60,313 nt of DNA, from the IMG/VR virus record IMGVR_UViG_3300047476_000372, positions 1-60,313 of that record. One strand, given 5' to 3'. The stretch's first letter is position 1; each line of letters starts with the position of its first letter. The notes beneath the pieces are model-generated. The model was not told the origin of the DNA, made no database searches, and was given only the letters and a program-made list of their open reading frames with translations. The DNA is from a virus (taxonomy: Duplodnaviria; Caudoviricetes). The position numbers and the translations under genes are program-made. Positions 5,824 through 60,313 of the stretch are shown piece by piece.

Positions 5824-5885
5824 GTTTATTTTATTTGTTAGATTGAAAGTTTGGCACTATTTTTGTTATACAAATACCAAAAACC

Positions 5886-14942: not shown

Positions 14943-14973
14943 CAAATCTACAAACTATTTGTATATCAGCAAA
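14943..14973 (-). promoter_or_regulatory. Bacteroidota promoter TTTG-N19-TAGATTTG
   Basis: Full -33/-7 consensus. Confidence 0.8.
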
Positions 14974-17374: not shown

Positions 17375-17704
17375 TTAATTACCAAAAATACCTTCCCAAT
17401 ATTCAGCTTCCTGCTTAGGATTATTCACATATTTATTGATGCTTTTAATAGCTTCTTCTACACTAGAAAATGCTATCTTCTTACATCCAACAGACACTAT
17501 GCATCCCACACTAATAAACTCTATACTAATGTTATACCTCATAAGTAGCTCCTGTTTTGTCGGTTCTCTGAACATAAGGCTTGGAACAACTTGAGTGCTG
17601 TAAGATGAACTTGTTATACCTGAGCCAGATAGATTAGAAGATGTGATTGGTTCTGTTGATGCTAAACCTACACTTGATGCTGAATTGATTTGTAGTTTTT
17701 CCAT
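17375..17704 (-). CDS. Hypothetical protein
   Basis: Start moved to MEKLQ because the track's longer N-terminus overlaps the tRNA. Confidence 0.7.
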   Translation of the reverse strand: MEKLQINSASSVGLASTEPITSSNLSGSGITSSSYSTQVVPSLMFREPTKQELLMRYNISIEFISVGCIVSVGCKKIAFSSVEEAIKSINKYVNNPKQEAEYWEGIFGN

Positions 17705-17728
17705 ACTATTTGTTTTTAAAAGTTTTAG

Positions 17729-17800
17729 CACCCGTCTGTGGACTCGAACCACCATCTTCGGTTTTGGACACCGACGTTCTACCAGTTTAACTATACGGGC
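17729..17800 (-). tRNA. tRNA-Trp(CCA), atypical
   Basis: Cloverleaf: D arm GTT..TGGTAGAAC, anticodon arm TCGGT-GTCCAAA-ACCGA, T loop TTCGAGT, discriminator G. Mismatches at 7:66 and 49:65; CCA end not encoded. Confidence 0.75.
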
Positions 17801-17943
17801 TGTACGCATACGTACATTTGTTAAGCAGGGTCTTTCCCTCTTGTCAACAGAGCTTGAAACTTACCTACGCACTGTGAGGTACTCTGTGTGGTTGTTCGCA
17901 TTGCCTAAGCAGTGACATGTATGCCTTCGGTTGCCGTGCGTAT
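17801..17943 (-). ncRNA. Candidate structured RNA (~140 nt, pseudoknot)
   Basis: GCAUAC/GUAUGC, ACAGAG/CUCUGU, UACCU/AGGUA and AGGG/CCCU helices; 5' UACGCAC is complementary to GUGCGUA. Confidence 0.5.
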
Positions 17944-17946
17944 CAG

Positions 17947-18061
17947 CGGTTGGGAAAGGATTCGAACCTTTATGGGTGAAAATTTATACGTCGTTTGACA
18001 CCCTTACTACGCTTAGCGTCTACCACGAGGATGGACACCACCCTCCTTCCGCCACCCAACC
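17947..18061 (-). ncRNA. tRNA-like RNA (Leu-type D arm) with D-loop insertion and no canonical anticodon arm
   Basis: Acceptor GGTTGGG/CCCAACC, T arm AAAGG-TTCGAAT-CCTTT, TGGCGGAA...TGGTAGACGC. Confidence 0.7.
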
Positions 18062-18065
18062 ATGT

Positions 18066-18206
18066 TTGCTACACTCTGGCAGTAGCCTCCCACTTGATAT
18101 CCTTACCTGCATTATTTGAAGGAGTGCTGTTATCGTGGAACAGATACGCAGGATACCTATGTCTAACCCAACCTTAGTGCCGAGGTTCAAGGGATTAATG
18201 ACCCCG
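18066..18206 (-). ncRNA. Candidate structured RNA (~140 nt)
   Basis: Helices GGGG/CCCU, AACCU/AGGUU, CCUGCGU/AUGCAGG, CUGUU/AACAG, GCUAC/GUAGC. Confidence 0.45.
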
Positions 18207-18215
18207 ATAACGCAA

Positions 18216-18767
18216 TTAGTTTATCAGTGACAATAGCTTAGTCTCTACAGGTTTAGATACCTTATACTTCTTCCTCACATCAGTCATAGTATAGCCACTC
18301 TTGAGTGACGCTACAACCTTATCCCATGCCTCTTTGTTTGACTCATTTAGCCATGGCTTGTCATCAGACGCATTTGTAGACGCTACAGCAGGCTTTATCT
18401 GTTCTCCTGCTGCATCCGTATCCTTATCGGTTACTATGCCTAGAATCGAAGATAATGCGTATCTACGTAGGTAAGTGATTGCGCTACCTAAGACTTGGAA
18501 TTCATTCATTCCTTTCAGGACTACACCTTCTTGAATTTGTATCTCAGAGCTAATACTCTCACCGGACTCTACATGGAATACTATGGTCTGTATAACAGAA
18601 CCAACGATGGGCTGTGTGAAGCCTAGACCATGTTTCTTGAGTAGAGGGTTGATGATAGTAAAGATAGTCGGTAGGTCAGCGTAGCTATACCCGTATCCTT
18701 GCGTATCCTTGTGGATGACAGGAACTTCTTGCTGAAAGTCTGATAATGCTTTGAATAGATGCTTCAT
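18216..18767 (-). CDS. erf: ERF-family ssDNA annealing protein
   Basis: YSYADL..I...I.P.L.K.GL, GSAITYLRRYALS..LGI..D.DTD. Confidence 0.92.
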   Translation of the reverse strand: MKHLFKALSDFQQEVPVIHKDTQGYGYSYADLPTIFTIINPLLKKHGLGFTQPIVGSVIQTIVFHVESGESISSEIQIQEGVVLKGMNEFQVLGSAITYLRRYALSSILGIVTDKDTDAAGEQIKPAVASTNASDDKPWLNESNKEAWDKVVASLKSGYTMTDVRKKYKVSKPVETKLLSLIN

Positions 18768-18799
18768 ATTATAGATGGTTTAGTTACTTAATTTATACA

Positions 18800-19135
18800 C
18801 CACCCCCTTTACTGCCGACCAACACTAAGTTGGGCAATTTTCAGTAGAACTATAGGGTATTCTTCTACTTCAGTGCTCTTTTGAGTATCCGCTTTACTGC
18901 AAGGGCAAGTATTGACTTGTGTTCGAAGGTCGGCACTATGTTGTCAGGGGGTCGGACAGCGCATAGATTTTTCGTCATACCTGTATCATTGAGTAGAAAA
19001 ACACTTCCAGAGGGCTGGCCCATAAAGGCCAAGCCCCCTAGTCCAAATCATACTCAACTTCTCAAAAGAACTCGTAATCTTTCATTAGCTGCATCTAGAT
19101 ACCAACAGCAGGGGTGAAACCGTTCTAAGACCCTA
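18800..19135 (-). ncRNA. Candidate ~330-nt pseudoknotted RNA
   Basis: 11-bp helix 19061-19071/18875-18885; crossing helices 18928-18935/18813-18820 and 18946-18952/18802-18808; GC-rich; no credible ORF. Confidence 0.6.
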
Positions 19136-19140
19136 GTCAA

Positions 19141-19240
19141 AACAAAAAACCCACACAGGTTGCGTCTGTATGGGTTCAATGAAAGAGGGTTCTCTTAAAT
19201 CAAACCCGAGTGAACAACGCAACTATCCAATCGGATTGAC
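19141..19240 (-). terminator. Promoter-proximal attenuator/terminator
   Basis: AACCCATACAG-ACGCAAC-CTGTGTGGGTT plus T tract; loop is complementary to upstream GTTGCGT (19217-19223). Confidence 0.7.
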
Positions 19241-19244
19241 AGGA

Positions 19245-19275
19245 CAAAATTATGAACATAGTTTGACACTACAAA
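19245..19275 (-). promoter_or_regulatory. Bacteroidota promoter TTTG-N19-TAATTTTG
   Basis: Full consensus. Confidence 0.8.
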
Positions 19276-19277
19276 AT

Positions 19278-19505
19278 TTATTTTATCCAATCTTCTGGAA
19301 TGTCTACATCCCAACCGCCACCATTCATAGGATTGTCATATACTCTTATGTCATCAGAGTAGTAGTGCAGTACCCTGCCACCTTTAACTCTTACAACCCA
19401 AACACTATTTGTATTTAATCCGTAGTCTATAATAATCAGAGCCTCTCCAACACCATGTGGTGTATGAACAGGAATAGTAGACTTTAGTTCGTGTATTGTA
19501 CTCAT
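19278..19505 (-). CDS. Conserved phage hypothetical protein
   Basis: IPV.TP.G.G.A..IIDYG......WVV pattern. Confidence 0.7.
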   Translation of the reverse strand: MSTIHELKSTIPVHTPHGVGEALIIIDYGLNTNSVWVVRVKGGRVLHYYSDDIRVYDNPMNGGGWDVDIPEDWIK

Positions 19506-20044
19506 CTTCTTTTTTCTTTTTCAAGAATGTCTGATACGATTCTCTTAACCTCTTCCTCTAGCTGTTCAAGAGTGCCAGAATTATCTATGATGTAGTCGAA
19601 GCAACCATTAGTGATGCCTGCTTCAGAAGAGTGATTGTTAACAGCTCCAACTCCTGCTCTATAGACTTGTATAGTGTAGCCACTATAGGAGCATATCGTA
19701 TCGTACTCATTCTGAAACCTCATGTCCGTTATCACCCAATCGTCACCTCTCATGTAGTCAGCCATCAGAGCATTTATCCAAGCATTAGGGTGGAGTCCGT
19801 CACGAATAGCTTCCGTACCTAGTCTCTGCAACAGCTCACGTACTGACATATCCCAACCATCAAGGTTACTCTCCTTAATCCTTTGATTTTCAAAGTGAAT
19901 TGTAGGTATGTTTGTTAGTATAGCAGCTATCTCCTTTAGCTTACCTGCGAACTTCTTAACTCTAAATGTTGGCGCATGCTTTACGATTAGCTTGCCTACC
20001 TCGTCCTTGCCTGCACCAGCATAACCATTGATTCCGATAATCAT
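19502..20044 (-). CDS. Deoxynucleoside monophosphate kinase
   Basis: IIGI.G.AGAGKD, FA..LK, RELLQ.LGTE..R, ITD.RF.NE, H.SE. Confidence 0.92.
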   Translation of the reverse strand: MIIGINGYAGAGKDEVGKLIVKHAPTFRVKKFAGKLKEIAAILTNIPTIHFENQRIKESNLDGWDMSVRELLQRLGTEAIRDGLHPNAWINALMADYMRGDDWVITDMRFQNEYDTICSYSGYTIQVYRAGVGAVNNHSSEAGITNGCFDYIIDNSGTLEQLEEEVKRIVSDILEKEKRR

Positions 20045-22894: not shown

Positions 22895-22926
22895 CAAAGT
22901 TAGTTAAATGTTTGTTATCAAACAAA
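22895..22926 (-). promoter_or_regulatory. Bacteroidota promoter TTTG-N20-TAACTTTG
   Basis: Consensus; the spacer contains ATAAC-N6-TTAAC. Confidence 0.75.
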
Positions 22927-27566: not shown

Positions 27567-27585
27567 GTGTGTGTGTTTTAGTGTG

Positions 27586-28085
27586 CGACATGGGGAGGTG
27601 GTCGACCCTCAATCCTAGCGGGCTATATCCCATGCCGTAAAGAAGTTTGTTTCGCTTTTTAGCCTTCTTACCTATCGGAGGATGAACTTGTCGACTAGTT
27701 ACCTAGTCCGTCTCTACCCTCGTTCCGATTCCGGTGTGGCGCACGACCTCAAGCTATTTGCTATCGTCGGAAGAACTATGACTGCGAGGCTTCACCCTTG
27801 TCCGCAGAAATCTAACCCTCTCGGGCATCATTGCTGATGTTTTAACGTCATTGTAGGACGAATCCGTTTAGCGTGAGCTTAAGACTAGTGGATTACGCTT
27901 GAGGCACTGATTAGCATTGAAACCGGTCATTCGGTATGGTAACACCCAATTGCATCGGCTGTGCTGCTGTCCTCGTCTCGTGCATTTCTGAAGTTTGGTG
28001 GTCACCACGTGGTTGACATCTTGCGACGTGTACGTGGGATGCATTTCCCTGATTCAGTGTGAGACATCGTTTGAAAGAACTGCGT
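27586..28085 (-). ncRNA. Candidate large ornate structured RNA (~500 nt)
   Basis: ORF-free and GC-elevated; GNRA hairpins; long-range helices 28054-28059/27905-27910 and 27897-27904/27747-27754; 5' boxA-like GTTCTTTCAA; 3' tRNA-like minidomain. Confidence 0.7.
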
Positions 28086-28140
28086 CATTGGTTGTTCGCC
28101 GTTGACATTGTAAAATTGCAAAGAACATTTCACAGTAAGT

Positions 28141-28695
28141 GTTAAAGCTTAGTTAAACCCAAAAAGTTTTTTTTGCCACCCAGCGCAATATGGAACAGCG
28201 TGCGTGTATGCGTGTGTACATGTGCGTGTACATGCGTGCGTGCGTAAGCATACGAAGAAAAAAATAGAAAAATCACAATGAAATGTTAAATCGTATTTGA
28301 AAAGGCAAATTTCCTCAAGGTTGGCATATCTCGGAGTGGGTAAGGTGTTTGTATGTTTCAGAGGGAAATGGGCTAGAATCGCCTAAAAATGGCCTTAAAA
28401 TTGATTGATGAAAAATCGTAATGTGTTCTGTTAAAGTCTTGTTAATAAAGGGTTTACCATTTGGATATGTGCAATAATTGTATTACACGTGGGCAACTAG
28501 TATACCATGAAATATCCAGCGCAACAGGTAAGGTTAAAGAAATGTTAAAGGGTAAACTAGTGGGAAAGGGTATCCCTCACTTAACTACTTGACTACCAAT
28601 AAGTTACACTACTAATCTACTAATTCAATAGACTAGTTATCCACTTAGTGTTAACTTGTTAACTAGTTCACAATCAATCGTTAATGTTTTGTTAA
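28141..28695. promoter_or_regulatory. Four GTTAA-N6-GTTAA (11-bp period) direct-repeat boxes
   Basis: At 28141-28156, 28430-28445, 28533-28548 and 28680-28695. Confidence 0.65.
28198..28246. repeat. 49-bp perfect purine-pyrimidine alternation
   Basis: GCGTGCGTGTATGCGTGTGTACATGTGCGTGTACATGCGTGCGTGCGTA. Confidence 0.9.
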
Positions 28696-29011
28696 AGTTT
28701 TCCCAGTTAGTAGGGTACTCGGTATAGGAATCGGACTTACCCATGCCCCATGCTATGCTTGTTATATGGTATAGTCCCCAAGCCAACTAGATATCTCACT
28801 ATATTTACCCCTAGCCGGGGACAGGCGTACACAAATCTACTCCCTACATACAATAACAGTTAGAGTCAGATGGGAACTAGAGAAGTACCTCCCTTACGAT
28901 GCGCACTTTTCTTCAAACTCAATACAGTATTAGCTTTGATTATGGAGAGTATTAGATACTATATCATACTCCTTAATACGTATAAGAAGGAAACTCCATA
29001 ACTAATTGATA
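28582..29011. promoter_or_regulatory. IHF-consensus-like sites and one near-DnaA box (candidate origin/packaging region)
   Basis: TATCAATTAGTTA (minus, 28999-29011) matches WATCAANNNNTTR; palindromic near-matches at 28582-28606; TTATCCACT at 28637. Confidence 0.4.
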
Positions 29012-29080
29012 ATCAATACTAGAATTATTTATACAACGATAAATTTTCCAGCGTGGTAGAAAATAGGCTATATTTGGCAT

Positions 29081-54800: not shown

Positions 54801-57080
54801 CAAGAGACTATAGATTACTACAGAGAGAATAAGGGTAAGTACTTGGTACGTTCTTACGAATCTATAAACTATAAAGATACTAAGGTATCTAAGTTTCTCT
54901 ACGGAGAAGGCTTGGATGTAGATAATGTAACTAAGAAACTAAAGAATGTAGATAAATCTGTTGTAGATGCAGCACTTAAGTTCCTTGCTGATAGGGCTAT
55001 GGAACAGAACTCTTCTTTATCTGAAGAGGATGCTATGAGACAGGCTAGAATTGAGGCTAATGGACTTCTATCAAATGCTGAAGAGTATGTCATGCAGAAA
55101 GGCCTTACTGGCAGCACTAATATAGCTTCTTTAGGAAAGAGACTATCTGATAAAGAGTTTGCTCCAGAACTTAGGGCATTGATGGGTGAATACACCGACC
55201 CTATATATAACTACTATGCATCTATATTTAAGATAGCAAGTCTTACTTCTGCTAGACAATACCTAAACTCTATGAAGGAGTATGGTATGGGTAAATTTAT
55301 GTTCCCATACAAGACAGAAGAAGCTACAGTGCAGATAGCTGGAGAGGGTTCTAGGACCCTTGAGCCACTGAATGGTCTGTATACATTCCCAGAGATTTAT
55401 GAGGCACTAAAGAAGGCAGACAAGGATGTACAGCCAATAATTATCCAGACACTAGGTAGGATACGTAAGTTCAAGACTGTATATAACCCTGCTACACATA
55501 TTAAGAATATAGTAGGTAATACAGGATTTGCTATGTCTAACGGTCACTGGAACTACATGAAAGAGGCTTACAAGTACATGAGAGCTTCTGTCACAGGGGA
55601 GACCGATGAGGATATCAATAGAGTTATGGACACCCTAAACAGATATGGTGTTTTAAACAATACTATTGGTATAGGAGAACTAAAGCAATATTTTAACAGA
55701 CATGAGAATGTAGATGACTTCTTGACTGAGATATATCAAGCTGGTGGTAAGAATAAGGCTATGTTCGGAAAAGTAAAGAATGCTGTTGCTCAAGTACCTA
55801 AGTTCATGGAGAAGGCGTACCAGATAGAGGATGACCTATTCAAGATACTTGGATTTGTGAATGAATCTAACAGGTATGCTAAAGCAATGTATAATGCAGA
55901 GTATAATAAGCTTACTGATGCTCAAAGGTCAGAGGTAGATAAGGTAGTTGCTGAGATTGTAAAGGATACATATCCTACATTCACTCGTGTTCCTAAGATT
56001 GTAAAAACAATTAGTAAGGGATTGTTTATGGGTAACTTCTTGTCATTCCCTGTAGAGTCGGTAAGGACTCAATATAACTCTATGGCACTTGCTTTGAAAG
56101 AGATTAATAGCGGGAATCCAAGGCTTAAAAATGTCGGTCTAACTAGACTTGCAGGAGCTGCTGCATATAATGCTATATTCTCTGGAATGGTTTACTACTC
56201 TTACTCTTTAGCAGCTGCTGGACTTACTGGTATGTTAGGAGTTCTAAATGGAGACGATGAGGATGAAACAGAAAATGCAAAGGCTATATCAAGATACGTC
56301 CCTCAGTGGAATATGAAGACAGATAAATACATTGAAATGTTTTCCAATGGTAAACTTATATATTATGACATTGGTTCTCTAGATTCATATAGCTACCAGA
56401 AAAGAGTTTGGAATGCGTTTTGGTCTAACATAAATAATAAAGAAGGGTTTGATAAGGCTATATCTGAGTCTATTGCAGAAGCAGTTGACCCATGGCTACA
56501 GAGAGACTTTGCGATAGAAAACTTTAATAAGTTGTGGAATAATCCAAACAACTCTATATATAATCCAAAGGATAATGCATGGAGAAAGTTGCAGGATATG
56601 TCTATGTTTGTTGCAAAACAAATGGGTCCGGGTGCTCTTGGAGCATCTATAAAGATAGCTGATAGCTACACTAAGGGAGACTACGACAAAGCTATAAACG
56701 AAGGTTTTTCTCAAATTGTCAGGAGATATGATATAGACCTTGAGAAGCAATTTAAAACATTTATATATGTAGATAATACTAATAAGAATAGTGATATTGG
56801 ATTTAGGGATGCACTTAGGAATACAGAAGATATATATAAAAGAGCTAAAGATGCTGGAGCTAAGGGTATTGAACTAGATGATGCATATAGGGAAGCTGTA
56901 GATAAGTACAAAGAGCAAGTTAAGATTATTAGAGAGTACTACAATTCAGCTACTAGAGCGGGTGTACCAGCCAAGAAGCTTAATGAAATTATGGATAAAT
57001 CAGGGTTTAGTCCAGCTGTTAAGAAGGGTGTAACTGAAGGTAAGTTTAACTTCCCTGACAAGAGTTACATTAAGAAGTAG
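48861..57080 (+). CDS. Giant polyvalent virion/ejection protein (2739 aa) with zincin HEGFH and an EEVQSDW domain
   Basis: N-terminal FA..VK.KYPEY..D.EL motif, HEGFH at 51546, H.R...R...G.K.L.LEEVQSDW; no RNAP DxDGD motif seen. Confidence 0.75.
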   Translation: MPDKVSPSKFAASVKAKYPEYQSYDDIELTNAIIKKFPEYKEYVDFGGPVPAAKPRPTGGLPSFQQQVEYMTPLVSEEQPRPSKYQEAVNKDKSEIGKTASTFYNTILGSFETLTKLATELPAAFPVTPYQFSPVDIGGAAESARKFQQLPLEERLKPVKESRKGIERAFDVVRSGYTTREEEAALKGQFDVTDGIGFKDFQALLAMSGGIATDMALGAATGGATFVGQGMQYAFEDYDNAVQKSGYAMDPKARNLYGIAGGVINGVLEKFAVDKIVGDVPVFRDLQRKVIANVLKNTANVTGKRAIDAIEEAAVAEVRKLSSNLKRAGYRALVEGGTEAAQAALEDGMKFASNAVQGNEVFNEEEIAKGFISNVVNSAVAGGVFGPMLGAGADITFGKNVNTEILTDIANAKTTEDLDGIRQELTKTFDENNFSQEERDIIMNNANRYAQIKQTIPEGTPALSQSVAIPKIEQRMKLDEEINKKTEYINTVDEAVRGSEEQELSFLQDKRASLNDEIREVISNDVFNYTEENGKYYKSLEGGAKEEISKNRYDLEQIKRGNYATTESKEQVQEGRPEGDISQRQGAQEIQDQEAFKSDIGYRYIVGEEGDDIPITALLNKKVRVKGQPAILYQQGQTIEARIIGTNRIIEIGNVNKLMNELPDAYDIELDEVLVTETPQGYRIEGQPLKNTNENPLDAISLDQNGNVMNVVLTTPAGKRRKFRGQVAQDLAYQIQLKEILKDEEQFEEFLTREHQAELDAAAKIAAQQEPEQVQEPVQEQAVGVDETISPRQVEPTYGRVTDRDATTSVRLPNPNRIQRKVLNDARKVATALEIFIPRTTGQAVQISLHDANSFEEAVVAAGGTQQDATSRGFYMATDGSIHLNMDNLETDTVLHEGFHPVLDFVEATNPAKINEFYNKLASIPGAEPIIAKAKELYGEGDAHKKEAITDFVAAVADGRVVVNPSNFQKIKAFVLNLVKSLGIGSGQKILTVKDETGLVELSKYITEQFTSEFGLITTVDVANIISEKEANREIAEVEKDLIGEKQYDSSEGQDVDKTIPEKGSGRGPQFSRSTLENAKNNLKKVSDLAGTKIARVVFYDMTRVGKLDIKNIKTGYTPNIEGKGGPLYSYMDNSVQNKSVLAFVSINQAIQSLQRQQMFPEAVHAIASQNPMTAHLGNKSTLQALFGEGIGIFQNAAKTKAQEKEIVNILVSEIDRMSKMPPNIEASKSVNKILQKVNLSSIKTINDFRDNILLGEGDSFGKRGSILTELLQNKQSKVTAATRNSHKILHYKYGIPTIEDIAKGNNQSELSNIELGDVVKLVRPSVEPVIYTTDPAMFERYSNNPTPEMKKGGIRIELLPEESAHESYPFVLVGENVALLEEYIGAQQLYQNFKDIKKSATFFKVGRMKKESEAGRVPVSVITEQKGPQFQRQYADVVNGFYSPIVKKVNEFKQPNASATKWKEIVGFKTDEAVYSGLADWLNSKKPNEQVSKQDVLKFMKDNRLQIIEKTRGGDYKVFDMRTDREVDSFETLDEAQDFVASAREDGDRYGIEEPIGGFISSIYEGYQLPGGKDYKERLVMLPGKDIFKGNHFKNDSNILVHLRMNTRTDADGKKVLFLEEVQSDWGQQGKREEFKEIPKAPFVTDTNAWVKLGMKIALKEAVKEGADRIAWTTGQQQNERYDLRKQVDEIQYNDNGDGTYSYSAVKNNSEIGSKQNVSIKVVEEDLGKDIADKILSSEGSKIPFSDAAGAKSLKGEDLKFGGKGMNAFYGDAQNVGIVGKVAKAVVKELTGKEGVIIESKISSPVNQDVIDRYNRARQYGNVPEALAKEYEQATGLQGTQPAIELTPELKQSVKAGMPQFQKAPTKAISKKPIVGVVQKTFIDQFRYGVLGKEGVKLKEAQAGELSAELAKAERVTKNAIQLIAKYKNSVSKTDVEDFMTGNEVEGNLPADLAAALTEAREHVDNMTERLIHLGVIDDQETIDYYRENKGKYLVRSYESINYKDTKVSKFLYGEGLDVDNVTKKLKNVDKSVVDAALKFLADRAMEQNSSLSEEDAMRQARIEANGLLSNAEEYVMQKGLTGSTNIASLGKRLSDKEFAPELRALMGEYTDPIYNYYASIFKIASLTSARQYLNSMKEYGMGKFMFPYKTEEATVQIAGEGSRTLEPLNGLYTFPEIYEALKKADKDVQPIIIQTLGRIRKFKTVYNPATHIKNIVGNTGFAMSNGHWNYMKEAYKYMRASVTGETDEDINRVMDTLNRYGVLNNTIGIGELKQYFNRHENVDDFLTEIYQAGGKNKAMFGKVKNAVAQVPKFMEKAYQIEDDLFKILGFVNESNRYAKAMYNAEYNKLTDAQRSEVDKVVAEIVKDTYPTFTRVPKIVKTISKGLFMGNFLSFPVESVRTQYNSMALALKEINSGNPRLKNVGLTRLAGAAAYNAIFSGMVYYSYSLAAAGLTGMLGVLNGDDEDETENAKAISRYVPQWNMKTDKYIEMFSNGKLIYYDIGSLDSYSYQKRVWNAFWSNINNKEGFDKAISESIAEAVDPWLQRDFAIENFNKLWNNPNNSIYNPKDNAWRKLQDMSMFVAKQMGPGALGASIKIADSYTKGDYDKAINEGFSQIVRRYDIDLEKQFKTFIYVDNTNKNSDIGFRDALRNTEDIYKRAKDAGAKGIELDDAYREAVDKYKEQVKIIREYYNSATRAGVPAKKLNEIMDKSGFSPAVKKGVTEGKFNFPDKSYIKK
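50548..50706 (+). CDS. Nested +1-frame small basic protein (52 aa, MPLQKAKSKSKKDVQKAISANVRELKK...ILAIAISSA)
   Basis: Resembles the widespread MPLKKG.S...IS.NI.E......P..QA.AIA.S.A phage protein pattern; A-rich/GAGGA leader; host-frame codons atypical here. Confidence 0.75.
   Translation: MPLQKAKSKSKKDVQKAISANVRELKKSKTKRPLNQILAIAISSAKKGMTSR
51088..51291 (+). CDS. Candidate nested +1-frame protein (67 aa)
   Basis: A-rich leader, amphipathic core, host frame low-complexity with C-ending codons. Confidence 0.5.
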   Translation: MKNNLKSSLQGSTKQNSMQQPKSQPSKNLSKFKSLSKNRQLELMKQFLQGKSNQPMAGSQTEMQQQA

Positions 57081-57646: not shown

Positions 57647-57647
57647 T

Positions 57648-60313
57648 ATGGCATACTCACCATTACAGATATCGTCTGCCTTACTTAAGTCAGAAAAGAC
57701 TATTTATAAAATAGGTCAGATAGCATATGATAATATGTTTTCAGAGGACGATGAGACATTGGACTATGAAAGAGACATTATATTCATATATAAAGAGTCT
57801 GTTAACTATGCAAAAAACGTATATATAGGGGAACAGAAGCTTGATAAGCTAGTAGAGAAATTATCTGCTAAGATATATGCCTATGACTATGGAGAGTTAA
57901 ATCCAGTATATTCAGATGCTGTAATAACAGCTTCTGCAATAGTAGGAACAGCATATTTAAATGATTTGAGTGATGTAACTATATCAAATCTACTTGACAA
58001 TCAAATACTTAGATATAATGCAGCTACTGGACAATGGATTAACGTAGGTCCGGGAAATACTGTTAGAAATAGCCAATCTTTTGTAGCTACTGCAGGACAA
58101 ACTTCTTTTACTACTGCCTATCCATTTGATATACAGTTATTAGATGTATATATCAATGGTGTGAAAATTAACTCTAGCTCTTATTCAACAGTTGGAGAAT
58201 ATACCATAAATCTAGTTGATGGGTGCATAGCTGGTGACATAGTTGATGTGGTAATATTTGACCCTGAGACATCAATACTACCTCCTGTAAATAACCTAAA
58301 TGATTTAAACGATGTAAATATTGGGCCTTTAGTCAATAAGCAGGGTCTTTATTATAATTCTGTTAGTGGTTTATGGGAGAATGGATTAGTTTTTGTGCCT
58401 TATACAGGAGCTCTTGGAAATGTAGATTTAGGAGAGTATGAAATACGTGCTGGTCAGTTTACTCTTGATACATCTCCAACAGGTGTAGCTACCGTTGGTA
58501 CTACTAGGTGGAATGATACAATAGGTAGTAGCGAGACAACCCTAAAAGGTGGTAGTGTTATTCTAAAGAATGGTGTGGACTTGGTGGCGAGAATAGTAAA
58601 TAAAGTTTCTCCTAACCAAACATTAACTAAAGCTGCTTATCAAGCGGTTAGAGTTAGTGGCGCACAAGGTCAGAGATTAGCGGTAGCTTTAGCACAAGCA
58701 AATAACGACAATAATAGTGCAGATACGATTGGACTTGTTACCGAGACGATAGCAACCAACCAAGAAGGGTTTATAATGACCGTTGGTTCGCTTGAAGGTA
58801 TAAATACAACTGGTTCTCTACAAGGCGAGACTTGGGTGGATGGTGATGTAATATATTTAAGTCCTACTACGGCTGGTGCTTTGACTAACGTCAAACCTAT
58901 TGCTCCTCAACATATTATTGTAATTGGTTATGTTGAGTACGCTCACGCAAACAATGGTAAGTTGTATGTTAAGGTGATGAACGGATGGGAGTTAGGGGAA
59001 TTGCATGACGTAGATACTACTGGTGCAACTGCTGGTCAGGTGCTTAAATACAACGGCACTATCTGGACACCGAGTGGGGATGCTGGGATAACGGGAACGG
59101 GTACAAGTGGTCAAGTTGCCTATTTCACTGGCTCGACTACACAAGCTGGTAGTAATAATTTGTTTTGGGATAATGCGAATGTTAGATTAGGTATAGGAAG
59201 AAATAATCCGCAAAATTCTCTTCATATTAGCAGTACTGGTGGTGGTGCAATATATTTAGAAGATAGTGATGCTACTTCTACTTTTAATACAACTGAAATT
59301 TCTAATAACGCTGGAAACTTTAATCTAACAACAAGAAGTTCTGCTGGTGCATTTGTTTCATCTGACTATCAAATAGTAAAAGATACAATTAGTTCTCAAT
59401 ATCACAGGTGGTTTACTGGTGGAACTGAAAGAGTTAGATTATTTAACACTGGCAACTTCGGTATCGGCACTGGTGCGACTGATTCGGGGCAGAGGTTACA
59501 AGTTATTGGTACTTCATCAATTAGCGGACAAGCTGATTTTGGAAATGCTATTTTAGTAGCTGGGCCTATTGGAGCACACCAAACAAGCAAAGGTGTTATT
59601 GAATACAACGCTAATAAAGTTGCTATACGTGCTTATGGTGCAACTGCTGGAACTGGTATTATAGCATTTAACACTGGTGGAGGTGGAGGTAGTGCAGATA
59701 CGGAGAGAGTAAGGATAATGGAGAATGGTAGTGTTTTAGTTGGTATTGCTGGTATTACGAATGTGGACTTGATGTTAAGGAGAAATTTAACAGCTACTAG
59801 TGGTACTGCATATTCAGTATATGTTAACTCAACAATACAATCAGATGTAACCTCAAATGCTTCTCTTTTTGCAACAAATGTTTCAACACAAGCTGCTGCA
59901 TTTACCCTAACTAATCTATTTCATTACAATGCTAGCCCAACTACAATAGGTGCTGGTAGTGCAATAACAAACGAATATGGTTTCTACGGAAACTTATCAG
60001 CCGCTACTGGTCGTTGGAATCTCTATATGAACGGCACTGCCAACAACTATATGGCGGGGTCGTTGGGGATTGGGAGTACGAGTTTAACGGGTATTAATCT
60101 AAGAGTATCAAAAAATATTACAGGAGCAACTGCTTCTTTTAATGTTCTTGCTTCTGGTGCTGTTCAATCAGATGTAACTTCTGCCTATGGGTTTTATAAT
60201 GCATCATCAACAGCGGCAGCTTCTTTTACTTTAAATGCCTACTTTCATTTCTTTGCCGAACAAGGTACATTTGGTGTAGGTTCAACGGTTTCAAGTCAAT
60301 ATGGATTTTATGT
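57648..60313 (+). CDS. Tail fibre/spike, N-terminal part (MAYSPLQ...), runs off the window end
   Basis: ATG at 57648, open to the end (absent from the ORF track because it has no stop). In frame with base 1 via the terminal overlap; ~2109 aa if joined. LNDLSDV and ELHDV fibre motifs. Confidence 0.88.
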   Translation, partial: MAYSPLQISSALLKSEKTIYKIGQIAYDNMFSEDDETLDYERDIIFIYKESVNYAKNVYIGEQKLDKLVEKLSAKIYAYDYGELNPVYSDAVITASAIVGTAYLNDLSDVTISNLLDNQILRYNAATGQWINVGPGNTVRNSQSFVATAGQTSFTTAYPFDIQLLDVYINGVKINSSSYSTVGEYTINLVDGCIAGDIVDVVIFDPETSILPPVNNLNDLNDVNIGPLVNKQGLYYNSVSGLWENGLVFVPYTGALGNVDLGEYEIRAGQFTLDTSPTGVATVGTTRWNDTIGSSETTLKGGSVILKNGVDLVARIVNKVSPNQTLTKAAYQAVRVSGAQGQRLAVALAQANNDNNSADTIGLVTETIATNQEGFIMTVGSLEGINTTGSLQGETWVDGDVIYLSPTTAGALTNVKPIAPQHIIVIGYVEYAHANNGKLYVKVMNGWELGELHDVDTTGATAGQVLKYNGTIWTPSGDAGITGTGTSGQVAYFTGSTTQAGSNNLFWDNANVRLGIGRNNPQNSLHISSTGGGAIYLEDSDATSTFNTTEISNNAGNFNLTTRSSAGAFVSSDYQIVKDTISSQYHRWFTGGTERVRLFNTGNFGIGTGATDSGQRLQVIGTSSISGQADFGNAILVAGPIGAHQTSKGVIEYNANKVAIRAYGATAGTGIIAFNTGGGGGSADTERVRIMENGSVLVGIAGITNVDLMLRRNLTATSGTAYSVYVNSTIQSDVTSNASLFATNVSTQAAAFTLTNLFHYNASPTTIGAGSAITNEYGFYGNLSAATGRWNLYMNGTANNYMAGSLGIGSTSLTGINLRVSKNITGATASFNVLASGAVQSDVTSAYGFYNASSTAAASFTLNAYFHFFAEQGTFGVGSTVSSQYGFY
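60090..60313 (+). repeat. Terminal overlap, copy 2 (matches 1-224)
   Basis: Direct comparison of the two ends. Confidence 0.95.

What the first reader, a model, noticed from the sequence alone, without database searches (positions are those of the whole stretch)
18800..19135. ~330-nt doubly pseudoknotted RNA in the leader of the recombination/replication operon
Seen on the minus strand: an 11-bp closing helix GUUCUUUUGAG/CUCAAAAGAGC (its G-U pair favours this strand); inner helices UUGAGUA/UACUCAA and a GC-rich hairpin; two internal segments (UGCCGACC, ACCCCCU) that pair perfectly with the 3' tail outside the closing helix; GCAGUAAAG occurs twice. It lies between an attenuator and erf. Inference: an unassigned ncRNA, ribozyme-like fold or regulatory leader.
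Basis: partly seen in the sequence, partly recalled or inferred. Interest (0 to 1): 0.7.

Follow-up and report, generated by a model that had tools for sequence, protein, structure and literature searches.

The report
Knotted leader RNA before phage erf
An uncultured freshwater phage carries a roughly 340-base folded, doubly knotted non-coding RNA between a promoter-proximal stop signal and its recombination genes; the RNA matches no catalogued family, and related phages carry two other unrelated folded RNAs at the same spot, so its job is still unknown.

Summary
Three homologous IMG/VR contigs keep them through compensatory changes. Of 67 modelled pairs, 96.6% of cells are paired and 11 pairs changed on both sides, against 0-2 in slid controls and 0 of 500 shuffles. 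Six of those 11 lie in the two pseudoknot helices. G-U pairs fix the strand as that of the genes. No ORF is conserved. Rfam gives nothing credible, ARAGORN finds no tmRNA, and the record holds no reverse transcriptase.

The RNA is rare: four IMG/VR contigs, the window included. It is one of three sequence-unrelated structured RNAs that follow the same conserved promoter and pseudoknotted attenuator in related phages. ERF loci without that leader have short gaps instead. A metatranscriptome contig lies wholly inside it.

Best reading (about 0.4): a stable, knotted untranslated module of the erf operon transcript that acts in cis. Main rival (about 0.33): a trans-acting RNA cargo, for example anti-defence.

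Earlier scan notes describe the attenuator class on other DNA, but not this large RNA.

The parts
19245..19275 (-). Promoter, Bacteroidota type: TTTG, 19 nt, TAATTTTG
   Evidence: the motif TTTG-N17-21-TAnnTTTG occurs 6 times in the window against 1.9 expected, and 0 of 100 shuffles reach 6. It is conserved in all 10 leader-bearing sequences. The consensus itself is recalled, not from a call.
19141..19244 (-). Conserved leader ('attenuator'): 5' strand of helix P0 (19236-19244), 7-nt box GUUGCGU (19217-19223), invariant hairpin (19187-19207), and terminator hairpin plus U tract (19139-19174) whose loop ACGCAAC (19159-19165) pairs with the box
   Evidence: in 9 distinct sequences, 7 of 7 box-loop pairs covary and 100% of cells are paired; terminator-like site. 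This is the subject of another first-reader note (e1-6305257).
19131..19140 (-). 3' strand of P0 (UUGAC(U)AGGG), which pairs with the transcript's 5' end UCCUGUCAA and marks the start of the large RNA
   Evidence: an 8-12 bp duplex between the transcript start and the bases after the U tract in 10 of 10 sequences. At most 9 of 200 shuffles do as well in each, and 0-1 of 200 in seven of the ten. The register differs between RNA types.
19072..19130 (-). 5' domain of the large RNA, invariant in all 4 homologues; its structure is not resolved
   Evidence: no substitutions here; 100% identity to L003 over 19073-19272, while flanking genes are 92-97%; a diverged relative of 19058-19248 on another contig (run X8, record 13) continues with unlike sequence.
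19061..19071 (-). Closing helix A, 5' strand GUUCUUUUGAG
   Evidence: helix 1: 11 pairs, 1 compensatory (U-A to A-U), 1 broken in 3 of 4 sequences.
18988..19058 (-). Arm B-C: helix B (GUUGAGUA/UACUCAAU) enclosing conserved internal loops and the GC-rich hairpin C (19007-19041)
   Evidence: helix 2: 3 compensatory and 1 one-sided change in 8 pairs. Helix 3: 14 pairs that never vary. One G-C pair is present in 2 sequences, deleted on both sides in L083 and on one side in L003.
18936..18966 (-). Hairpin R (CUAUG..CAUAG and UGUC..GACA); its loop carries ACCCCCU (18946-18952), the 5' strand of pseudoknot P
   Evidence: helices 4-6: 1 compensatory change in R, and 2 compensatory plus 1 one-sided change in P.
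18928..18935 (-). UGCCGACC, 5' strand of pseudoknot helix Q
   Evidence: helix 7: 8 pairs, 4 compensatory, 100% paired.
18889..18927 (-). Variable stretch with a small hairpin (CAAGU/ACUUG, 18906-18919) and hairpin S presenting the first GCAGUAAAG
   Evidence: the other allele has a different hairpin with a GCAA loop and 9 extra nt; run X10 has 107 other letters in place of 18892-18992. GCAGUAAA is kept in both alleles.
18875..18885 (-). Closing helix A, 3' strand CUCAAAAGAGC
   Evidence: helix 1.
18843..18869 (-). Hairpin D (AGUAGAA/UUCUACU), invariant together with its flanks
   Evidence: helix 8: 7 pairs that never vary, so no evidence for or against; its 5' strand and loop (columns 393-404) can alternatively pair with 12 invariant bases running from the internal loop into helix B's 3' strand (columns 248-259, window about 18993-19004).
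18820..18832 (-). Hairpin E (CAAC..GUUG, 3-5 bp)
   Evidence: C-G and A-U become G-U in the other allele. The 5-bp version has 2 compensatory pairs but overlaps Q by 2 nt.
18802..18820 (-). 3' tail: GGUCGGCA (Q 3' strand), linker GUAAAG (part of the second GCAGUAAAG) and AGGGGGU (P 3' strand)
   Evidence: helices 6 and 7.
18768..18801 (-). A/U-rich, apparently unstructured 34 nt up to the erf start codon (ATG at 18765-18767)
   Evidence: nearly invariant, with no predicted conserved helix.
18216..18767 (-). erf (ERF-family single-strand annealing protein), first gene after the RNA
   Evidence: PF04404, E 1.7e-26.

Best explanation
SHOWN. 19140-18802 (minus strand) is a real, non-coding, compactly folded RNA module of about 340 nt from an undescribed family. 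It is the middle part of a roughly 480-nt untranslated leader. The order is: Bacteroidota-type promoter (19245-19275), a conserved pseudoknotted leader ending in an intrinsic terminator (19139-19174), this RNA, 34 A/U-rich nt, then erf, followed by a PDDEXK nuclease and a primase-helicase-like gene. An 11-bp helix A closes a junction bearing arm B-C, hairpin R and two small hairpins. A 3' part (hairpins D and E) is tied back across helix A by two pseudoknot helices, Q (8 bp) and P (5-7 bp). A further helix, P0, joins the first bases of the transcript to the first bases of this RNA. I hold the reality of the fold at about 0.9.

INFERRED (about 0.4). Polymerases that read through the terminator make this RNA as part of the operon transcript. 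Its knotted fold then acts in cis as a nuclease- and Rho-resistant untranslated block. That block would protect and insulate the 5' end of the recombination-operon mRNA and set the context of the unstructured start region of erf. The same stability would let it accumulate above the mRNA. The helices serve as scaffold and can change sequence. The invariant 5' domain, junctions and hairpin D would carry whatever specific contacts exist.
For: Fold:
- 96.6% of 266 cells are paired, and 11 of 67 pairs changed on both sides, against 0-2 when partners are slid and 0 of 500 shuffles.
- The same helices top an unbiased scan.
- 9 pairs hold G-U in at least one sequence, 26 cells in all. These would be A-C on the other strand.

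Non-coding:
- The window's 78-, 55- and 41-codon ORFs are broken or changed in the homologues by 1-nt indels.

Leader position:
- Promoter motif.
- The only terminator-like site on this strand between 17500 and 19600 is 19147-19177; none lies between the RNA and erf.
- P0 pairing occurs in 10 of 10 sequences.
- The distance from P to the ATG is the same in all 4 sequences.

Generic rather than ligand-specific role:
- The same promoter and leader are followed by two other structured RNAs with no shared 8-mer, each with compensatory changes: 10 of 72 and 17 of 94 predicted pairs.

Stability:
- In an RNA library (run X13), the one contig laid on 18700-19300 is 270 nt, 100% identical, spans 18834-19103 and reaches neither erf nor the attenuator.
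Against: - No experiment or read-end data exist. Contigs cannot show ends, strand or level, and an RNA library can hold DNA.
- 72 of the 74 ERF-homologue loci that could be measured have gaps of 207 nt or less before erf and no such RNA, so erf expression does not need it.
- In type-3 phages the RNA is followed by small ORFs or an HNH gene, not directly by erf.
- Per earlier unchecked scan notes, the conserved leader elsewhere heads protein genes directly. That makes the large RNA look like cargo rather than part of the control element.
- Complete invariance of the 59-nt 5' domain, while flanking genes differ by 3-8%, points to a sequence-specific partner. A mere protective block would not need one.
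- Only four sequences in two alleles are known.
Confidence: 0.4

Rival explanations
1. The RNA is cargo: a stable trans-acting non-coding RNA cut out of the leader, one of several interchangeable RNA 'genes' placed behind a common gated promoter. It would act on a host or phage partner, for example as a decoy or inhibitor of a host defence or as a host-takeover factor.
For: - Three sequence-unrelated structured RNAs occupy the same slot.
- The slot is empty in 72 of 74 measurable ERF loci.
- The central part is hypervariable, 60% identity over 18883-18973 against 93-99% in erf, yet stays paired.
- The 5' domain is invariant.
- An RNA-library contig is confined to the RNA.
- The stretch after erf, 17750-17998, which includes part of the tRNA-Trp gene (17728-17800) and other gene-free sequence, is also replaced between relatives at 30-37% identity.
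- Earlier notes report the leader class directly in front of protein genes, and a knotted 400-nt RNA next to tRNAs in lake phages (unchecked).
Against: - It has no promoter or terminator of its own, so a 3' end would need processing, which is not shown.
- No partner is identified.
- No repeat or mimicry of a known defence RNA was seen; the only Rfam gathering hit in the window is the tRNA.
- No significant complementarity to other parts of the window.
Confidence: 0.33
2. A ribozyme: a self-cleaving or self-processing RNA that separates the leader from the operon mRNA, or a degenerate group I-like core.
For: The helix order is: closing helix, arm, hairpin, long-range strand, closing-helix return, hairpin, long-range return. 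This resembles the P3-[P4-P6]-P7-P3'-P8-P7' order of group I introns (recalled). It is a double pseudoknot in a phage.
Against: - No Rfam ribozyme or intron match at E up to 10.
- No exon context: erf aligns from residue 1 in 80 loci, and the upstream gene differs in L002.
- The P7-like helix Q is a perfect 8-bp helix with 4 of 8 pairs exchanged between alleles, unlike a conserved guanosine-binding P7.
- An extra hairpin sits where J8/7 should be.
Confidence: 0.07
3. A primer or origin RNA: a structured transcript that forms a persistent hybrid and primes replication next to the replication and recombination genes, as ColE1 RNA II or the T4 origin transcripts do.
For: It lies at the head of the recombination-replication module: ERF, PDDEXK nuclease, SNase and a BT4734-like primase-helicase N domain. 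It is followed by an A/T-rich stretch. It varies between relatives, as origins often do.
Against: No iterons or repeats were seen here. Three unrelated folds give no common DNA feature. Nothing ties the fold to DNA hybrid formation.
Confidence: 0.06
4. A riboswitch or protein-binding operator that tunes erf translation, for example autoregulation by ERF as T4 gp32 does at its leader pseudoknot.
For: A pseudoknot lies directly 5' of an unstructured A/U-rich start region of a gene for a single-strand DNA binding and annealing protein. Invariant bases can form alternative pairings of 12, 10 and 9 bp, which could mark a switch.
Against: - There is no expression platform: no terminator or start-codon-sequestering helix after the fold.
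- No riboswitch family matches.
- Unrelated folds fill the same slot, and in some phages they are not next to erf.
- The alternative pairings have no covariation and are near chance expectation for a 370-nt RNA (my estimate).
Confidence: 0.08
5. Not functional: remnant of a decayed gene or chance complementarity.
For: It is rare, with four IMG/VR contigs and one metagenome record that is the same contig as L003. Single-sequence folding is only z -2.0, and similar on the other strand.
Against: 11 compensatory pairs with clean controls. The 5' domain is more conserved than the neighbouring genes. The sequence was found in runs of 17 studies of fresh water and related habitats, of which only 4 runs were laid.
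Confidence: 0.03

Closest known systems
GOLLD and ROOL RNAs (large ornate RNAs of phages and prophages, often beside tRNA genes; function unknown). Recalled; for PMC12286853 I saw only the search listing and the start of the abstract.
   Same: Large, phage-borne, multi-helix RNA with long-range pairings. It lies in an RNA-rich region with a tRNA gene about 1 kb away. It comes from lake water and has no known function.
   Different: No match to either Rfam family. It is about 340 nt rather than about 580-800 nt. It is embedded in an operon leader without its own promoter or terminator. No evidence of multimer formation.
Group I intron core (P3-P8 / P7 pseudoknot), as in T4 td, nrdB and sunY (recalled)
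   Same: The order of helices and the crossing of two long-range helices; the phage setting.
   Different: No exons, no Rfam hit, no bulged and conserved P7, and an extra hairpin in place of J8/7. It works like a knotted scaffold at most and is not a member.
Pseudoknotted promoter-proximal leader RNAs of Bacteroidota phages noted earlier in this scan (e1-3282400, e1-3279607, e1-2463950); those notes named P4 CI / P1 c4 and HK022 put as closest systems
   Same: The module just upstream (19141-19244) has the defining trait: a 5' box that always matches the loop of the terminator-like hairpin. I tested this here: 7 of 7 pairs covary.
   Different: Those notes describe leaders of 100-180 nt directly before protein genes. 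The large RNA studied here is an extra module behind such a leader and shares no sequence with it.
Translational operator of T4 gene 32 mRNA (a 5' pseudoknot followed by an unstructured A/U-rich leader, bound by the single-strand DNA binding protein it encodes; recalled)
   Same: Pseudoknot strands end 34 nt before the start codon of a single-strand DNA annealing protein gene, followed by an A/U-rich unstructured stretch.
   Different: Ten times larger. Binding by ERF is untested. Related phages place unrelated RNAs, or other genes, in between.
putL/putR of phage HK022 (cis-acting RNA that makes RNA polymerase terminator-resistant; recalled)
   Same: A structured RNA in a phage early leader, close to a terminator and acting on its own transcript.
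   Different: put is about 70 nt, has two hairpins and lies upstream of the terminators it suppresses. This RNA lies downstream of the leader terminator and is knotted.

Membership tests
Any Rfam 15 family (4227 models, including riboswitches, ribozymes, RNase P, tmRNA, 6S, GOLLD, ROOL, HEARO, OLE, raiA) | Covariance-model score at or above the family's gathering score | tested here: not met
   the only gathering hit in the window is the tRNA at 17729-17800. (18600-19400, E up to 10): five sub-threshold matches. Two are snoRNA models (bits 19-20 against gathering 45-64). Three lie in the attenuator: trpB 24.2 against 59, rdlD 14.7 against 50, and TMV_UPD-PK3 11.3 against 34.
Group I intron | Interrupts a gene, with flanking exons that join into an intact product | tested here: not met
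   erf aligns from residue 1 to relatives in 80 loci. The upstream ORF ends in a stop codon and is a different gene in L002.
Group I intron | Conserved P7 with a guanosine-binding pair and a bulged base, and a short single-stranded J8/7 | tested here: not met
   The P7-like helix Q is a perfect 8-bp helix with 4 of 8 pairs exchanged between alleles. Hairpin E lies between the P8-like hairpin and Q's 3' strand. The feature list is recalled.
Group I intron | P3-P8/P7 pseudoknot topology | tested here: met
   Helix A crosses helices Q and P. This is a resemblance only.
tmRNA | tRNA-like domain plus a tag reading frame | tested here: not met
   ARAGORN finds one tRNA-Trp and no tmRNA in the window.
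Riboswitch (any class) | An aptamer followed by an expression platform (terminator or start-site-sequestering helix) | tested here: not met
   No terminator-like site on this strand between 18768 and 19139. The last 34 nt before the ATG are unpaired in the constrained folds of both alleles, apart from weak non-conserved pairs.
Riboswitch (any class) | Specific ligand binding | not testable with these tools
   Needs in-line probing or ITC.
Retron / DRT-type template RNA | An adjacent reverse transcriptase gene | tested here: not met
   PF00078 finds nothing in the 60313-base record, while the control genomes ring. The record is 84% complete by CheckV.
Bacteroidota-phage pseudoknotted leader class (scan notes; applies to the neighbouring 19141-19244 module, not to the large RNA) | A 5' box complementary to the loop of a promoter-proximal terminator hairpin, covarying between copies | tested here: met
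   7 of 7 pairs changed on both sides, 100% of 189 cells paired, 9 distinct sequences.
Protein-coding gene or pseudogene | An open frame kept in the homologues | tested here: not met
   no ORF of 30 or more codons is shared in place and frame by all four sequences. 1-nt indels at six or more columns.

The most novel reading that the evidence does not exclude
Freshwater Bacteroidota-type phages keep an RNA cargo slot behind a common gated promoter, at the head of the recombination operon. The slot is filled in different lineages by at least three unrelated, elaborately folded RNAs of 260-470 nt, of which this doubly knotted RNA is one. On this reading the RNAs are stable trans-acting products, diversifying under an arms race and acting as decoys or inhibitors of host defence or host RNA machinery. 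That would make them an RNA counterpart of protein anti-defence islands.
Probability: 0.25. Interest if true: 0.85.

Novelty: new member of a known kind. Interest (0 to 1): 0.62.

Why it matters
Large structured RNAs with no assigned function are rare. Past examples (GOLLD, ROOL, OLE, HEARO) each opened new biology once understood.

This case gives a compact, experimentally tractable fold of about 340 nt. Its helices, two pseudoknots included, are already mapped by natural compensatory changes. It also has a defined transcriptional context.

The finding that three unrelated folded RNAs occupy the same slot behind one conserved leader turns a single curiosity into a testable system. One can swap the modules, delete them and look for partners. 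If the RNAs act in trans, this would be a new way for phages to carry accessory functions as RNA. If they act in cis, it would show how SD-independent Bacteroidota phages build long protected leaders. Either way the family is missing from Rfam and could be added.

Tried and rejected
Homologue searches:
- blastn of the 510-nt gap against 50,697 phage records: no match.
- Eight IMG/VR scans. Five RNA-derived patterns found the RNA only on the three contigs behind L002/L082, L003/L084/L222 and L083. All other hits were chance by blastn. These comprise the 110 stretches of the GCAGTAAA...GCAGTAAAGG pattern other than the known contigs, 5 extra hits of a 17-mer, and 20 extra hits of another 17-mer.
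- The one metagenome scan returned only L197, the same contig as L003.
- The one genome-contig scan, with the attenuator hairpin, gave one chance hit in a Gammaproteobacteria MAG with no surrounding likeness.

Other negative or dropped leads:
- I built no covariance model. A model of four near-identical sequences would be dominated by sequence, and only loci already held could be searched.
- There is no shared 8-mer between the three RNA types.
- There is no second copy of the leader and no significant self-similarity or antisense target in the window.
- T-box-like reading of GGGUGGU in the tail: rejected, because it is absent from the other allele.
- K-turn reading of the hairpin D flanks: it does not fit the consensus by eye (recalled consensus).
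- The palindrome AUCUAGAU in the 5' domain as a dimerisation site: a diverged relative appears to change it, so I dropped it.
- The alternative pairings of invariant segments have no covariation, so I kept them only as a remark.
- Literature: two full-text searches listed nothing on such an RNA. I read only listings and abstract starts, and supplements were closed. Catalogues of candidate RNAs in supplements (for example PMC8040213, PMC2864571) could hold it unseen.
- Parts of 18700-19300 without cover in X13, X10 or X17 prove nothing.
Full report
**Setting.**
The window is an IMG/VR virus record of 60313 bases, 84% complete by CheckV. Genes around the finding run on the minus strand. In order they are: a deoxynucleotide monophosphate kinase (19502-20044), a 75-codon ORF (19278-19505), a 510-nt gene-free gap (18768-19277), and erf (18216-18767; PF04404, E 1.7e-26). 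Further downstream lie tRNA-Trp (17728-17800), an SNase-like nuclease, a PDDEXK-like nuclease, a BT4734-like primase-helicase N domain and DUF1064. No reverse transcriptase is present. The gap opens with TTTG-N19-TAATTTTG (19245-19275). That motif class occurs 6 times in the window against 1.9 expected, and 0 of 100 shuffles reach 6. That it is the Bacteroidota promoter consensus is recalled. The promoter is followed after about 100 nt by the only terminator-like site on this strand in 17500-19600.

**Check of the observation.**
- From one sequence alone the evidence is thin. The MFE is -106.7 kcal/mol with z = -2.0, the opposite strand gives z = -1.9, and 4 of 100 shuffles fold as well on each.
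- GCAGUAAAG occurring twice is matched by 17 of 100 shuffles of the whole window.
- Rfam gives no gathering hit other than the tRNA, and only sub-threshold chance matches at E up to 10.

**Homologues.**
- ERF relatives were fetched from IMG/VR: 80 loci kept out of 585 confirmed.
- Only L002 and L003 (ERF 98% identical) contain the 510-nt gap, at 85-88% nucleotide identity.
- Of the 74 loci where the upstream ORF could be measured, 72 have gaps of -4 to 207 nt. Six loci start too close to measure.
- Pattern scans added one more contig, L083. All other pattern hits were chance.
- The metagenome scan returned the L003 contig again.
- The RNA is therefore known from four IMG/VR contigs, the window included.
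- Its sampled words occur in runs of 17 studies, mostly fresh water. Only four runs were laid.

**Covariation.**
In the 4-sequence alignments the window differs from the other three mainly between 19058 and 18802, and the differences are paired:

| Helix | Window | Other allele |
|---|---|---|
| B | GUUGAGUA/UACUCAAU | GCUAUGUA/UACGUAGC |
| Q | UGCCGACC/GGUCGGCA | UGCUGGAA/UUCCAGCA |
| P | ACCCCCU/AGGGGGU | GACCU/AGGUC |
| R | CUAUG/CAUAG | CCAUG/CAUGG |
| A | U-A | A-U (one pair) |
| E | CAAC/GUUG | GGAC/GUUU or GGAU/GUUU |

Counts on the structure I wrote:
- 67 pairs, with 96.6% of 266 cells paired.
- 11 pairs changed on both sides.
- 0 of 500 shuffles reach any of the five measures.
- Sliding the 3' partners by 1-3 columns gives 35-51% paired and 0-2 double changes.
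- An unbiased scan over all column pairs ranks Q, the attenuator box-loop helix, B, E, P, A and R first.

Against:
- One pair of helix A is C-U in 3 of 4 sequences.
- One pair of R is lost in L002.
- The two outer pairs of P are lost in 3 and 2 sequences.
- Hairpins C and D never vary, so they are neither supported nor contradicted.
- The four sequences are essentially two alleles, so the events are not independent.

Nine pairs hold G-U in some sequence (26 cells). This fits only the minus strand as RNA. One G-C pair of hairpin C is deleted on both sides in L083. No ORF survives in all homologues.

**Architecture.**
Reading 5' to 3' on the minus strand:
- P0 3' strand (19131-19140)
- invariant 5' domain (19072-19130), structure unresolved
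- helix A 5' strand
- arm B-C
- a conserved single-stranded stretch
- hairpin R, whose loop is the 5' strand of P
- Q 5' strand
- a variable stretch with one small hairpin, and hairpin S presenting GCAGUAAA
- helix A 3' strand
- invariant hairpin D
- hairpin E
- Q 3' strand
- linker GUAAAG
- P 3' strand (ends at 18802)
- 34 A/U-rich nt
- the ATG of erf

Helix A crosses both Q and P, so 'doubly pseudoknotted' is right.

Invariant segments can form three alternative pairings, in A3 alignment columns:
- 12 bp between columns 248-259 (window about 18993-19004) and the 5' strand and loop of D
- 10 bp between the attenuator linker and the 5' domain
- 9 bp between the 5' domain and the Q 3' region

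They have no covariation and are close to what a 370-nt sequence gives by chance (my estimate).

**Link to the attenuator.**
A scan with the invariant hairpin of the upstream module found six further IMG/VR contigs. All carry the same promoter and the same 104-nt leader.
- In 9 distinct sequences, the 7-nt box 5' of the hairpins and the 7-nt loop of the terminator covary at 7 of 7 positions with 100% pairing.
- In 10 of 10 sequences, the first bases of the predicted transcript pair with the bases right after the U tract, in a register that depends on what follows.
- Read-through transcripts can therefore close the leader into one domain, and the large RNA starts at that closing helix.

**Three RNAs for one slot.**
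Behind that leader come three sequence-unrelated stretches, with no shared 8-mer:
- Type 1: this RNA, then erf.
- Type 2: L218 and L220, 435-470 nt, then erf.
- Type 3: L219, L221, L223 and L224, about 260-290 nt, then small ORFs. In L223 an HNH endonuclease gene comes before erf.

Types 2 and 3 also show compensatory changes, in 17 of 94 and 10 of 72 predicted pairs, and match no Rfam family at E up to 1.

Against L003:
- the leader and 5' domain are 100% identical (19073-19272)
- the centre of the RNA drops to 60% (18883-18973)
- erf is 93-99%
- the stretch after erf that includes part of the tRNA gene is 30-37% (17750-17998)

**Expression hint.**
Four runs were laid.
- The RNA library X13 gave one contig of 270 nt, 100% identical, spanning 18834-19103 and nothing else of 18700-19300. 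Contigs cannot show ends or strand, and DNA can be present in RNA libraries, so this is only a hint that the RNA is present above its flanks.
- DNA runs X8 and X10 show the leader (19138-19260) on several other contigs that continue with unlike sequence.
- X8 also holds one diverged relative of 19058-19248.
- X10 holds the second allele, with 107 other letters in place of 18892-18992.

**Interpretation.**
Shown:
- a real folded RNA of an undescribed family
- co-oriented with the erf operon, downstream of a gated promoter and joined to the leader by P0
- dispensable for erf in most relatives
- replaceable by unrelated folds

Inferred, about 0.4: it is made by read-through and acts in cis as a stable knotted block that protects and insulates the untranslated 5' part of the operon mRNA. 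Unrelated folds can serve such a generic role, and the fold has no expression platform.

The main rival, about 0.33, is that it is cargo: a processed trans-acting RNA, possibly anti-defence. This is favoured by:
- the slot-like variability
- the invariant 5' domain
- the RNA-only contig
- earlier unchecked scan notes that the leader class elsewhere heads protein genes directly

I hold the ribozyme, riboswitch/operator and primer readings at 0.06-0.08 each, and 'not functional' at 0.03.

**Comparison with known systems.**
- It is not a member of any Rfam family.
- It shares only helix order with the group I core. It fails the exon and P7 criteria.
- It resembles GOLLD and ROOL in kind, as a large phage RNA of unknown function, but not in sequence, size or setting.
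- The neighbouring leader does meet the defining trait of the leader class noted earlier in this scan. I reuse that context, but the large RNA itself was not reported there.

**Verdict.**
Observation confirmed and first reading supported. This is a new structured RNA of a known general kind: orphan structured phage RNAs and long leaders. Interest is 0.62. The fold is solid and the three-way slot is unusual, but the family is tiny and its function is open.

Noticed in passing
window 19131-19244 (-); L218-L224, L002, L003, L083: The upstream 'attenuator' is a conserved 104-nt leader. A 7-nt box and the terminator loop covary at 7 of 7 positions, with Watson-Crick pairs only, in 9 distinct sequences. 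A helix (P0) joins the transcript's 5' end to the bases after the U tract in 10 of 10 sequences. Together with two hairpins this gives a four-arm, cloverleaf-like layout. The loop UGAUUUAAGAG of the middle hairpin is invariant.
   Followed up: yes
L218:919-1353 (-), L220:545-1015 (-): Type-2 RNA: a 435-470-nt GC-richer structured stretch with several GAAA-type loops, lying between the same leader and an erf gene. 17 of 94 predicted pairs are compensatory between the two copies. No Rfam match.
   Followed up: partly
L219:1021-1283 (-), L223:3390-3650 (+), L224:332-617 (-), L221:1-111 (-): Type-3 RNA: a 260-290-nt structured stretch behind the same leader. 10 of 72 predicted pairs are compensatory. 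UCUAAGUUC-like words occur near both ends. In L223 an HNH endonuclease gene sits between it and erf.
   Followed up: partly
window 17750-18083 (-): The gene-free stretch after erf, which includes part of tRNA-Trp, is only 30-37% identical to L003 over 17750-17998 and is absent from L002, while the flanking genes are over 90% identical. This is a second variable RNA-rich island. Other first-reader notes (e1-6305258, e1-6305259) flag a tRNA-like element and structured RNAs here.
   Followed up: no
window 5834-5865 (+), 14943-14973 (-), 19882-19914 (+), 22895-22926 (-), 56687-56715 (-): Five further matches to TTTG-N17-21-TAnnTTTG. The total of 6 compares with 1.9 expected, which fits a host of the phylum Bacteroidota (consensus recalled).
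   Followed up: partly
window 27567-29080 and 57647-60313: Two long stretches without any ORF of 75 codons or more, 1514 and 2667 nt (crude ORF map). Another first-reader note mentions a 'large RNA' near 28100.
   Followed up: no
window 19278-19505 (-) against L002:1898-2485: The gene upstream of the promoter differs between close relatives: a 75-codon ORF here, in L003 and in L083, and a longer unrelated ORF in L002. The non-coding unit stays the same from the stop codon on, so the promoter-leader-RNA-erf block moves as a unit.
   Followed up: partly
L225:5587-5605: The 19-nt attenuator hairpin word occurs once in a Gammaproteobacteria MAG, inside an unrelated palindromic intergenic element. 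This is a chance hit, not a homologue.
   Followed up: yes
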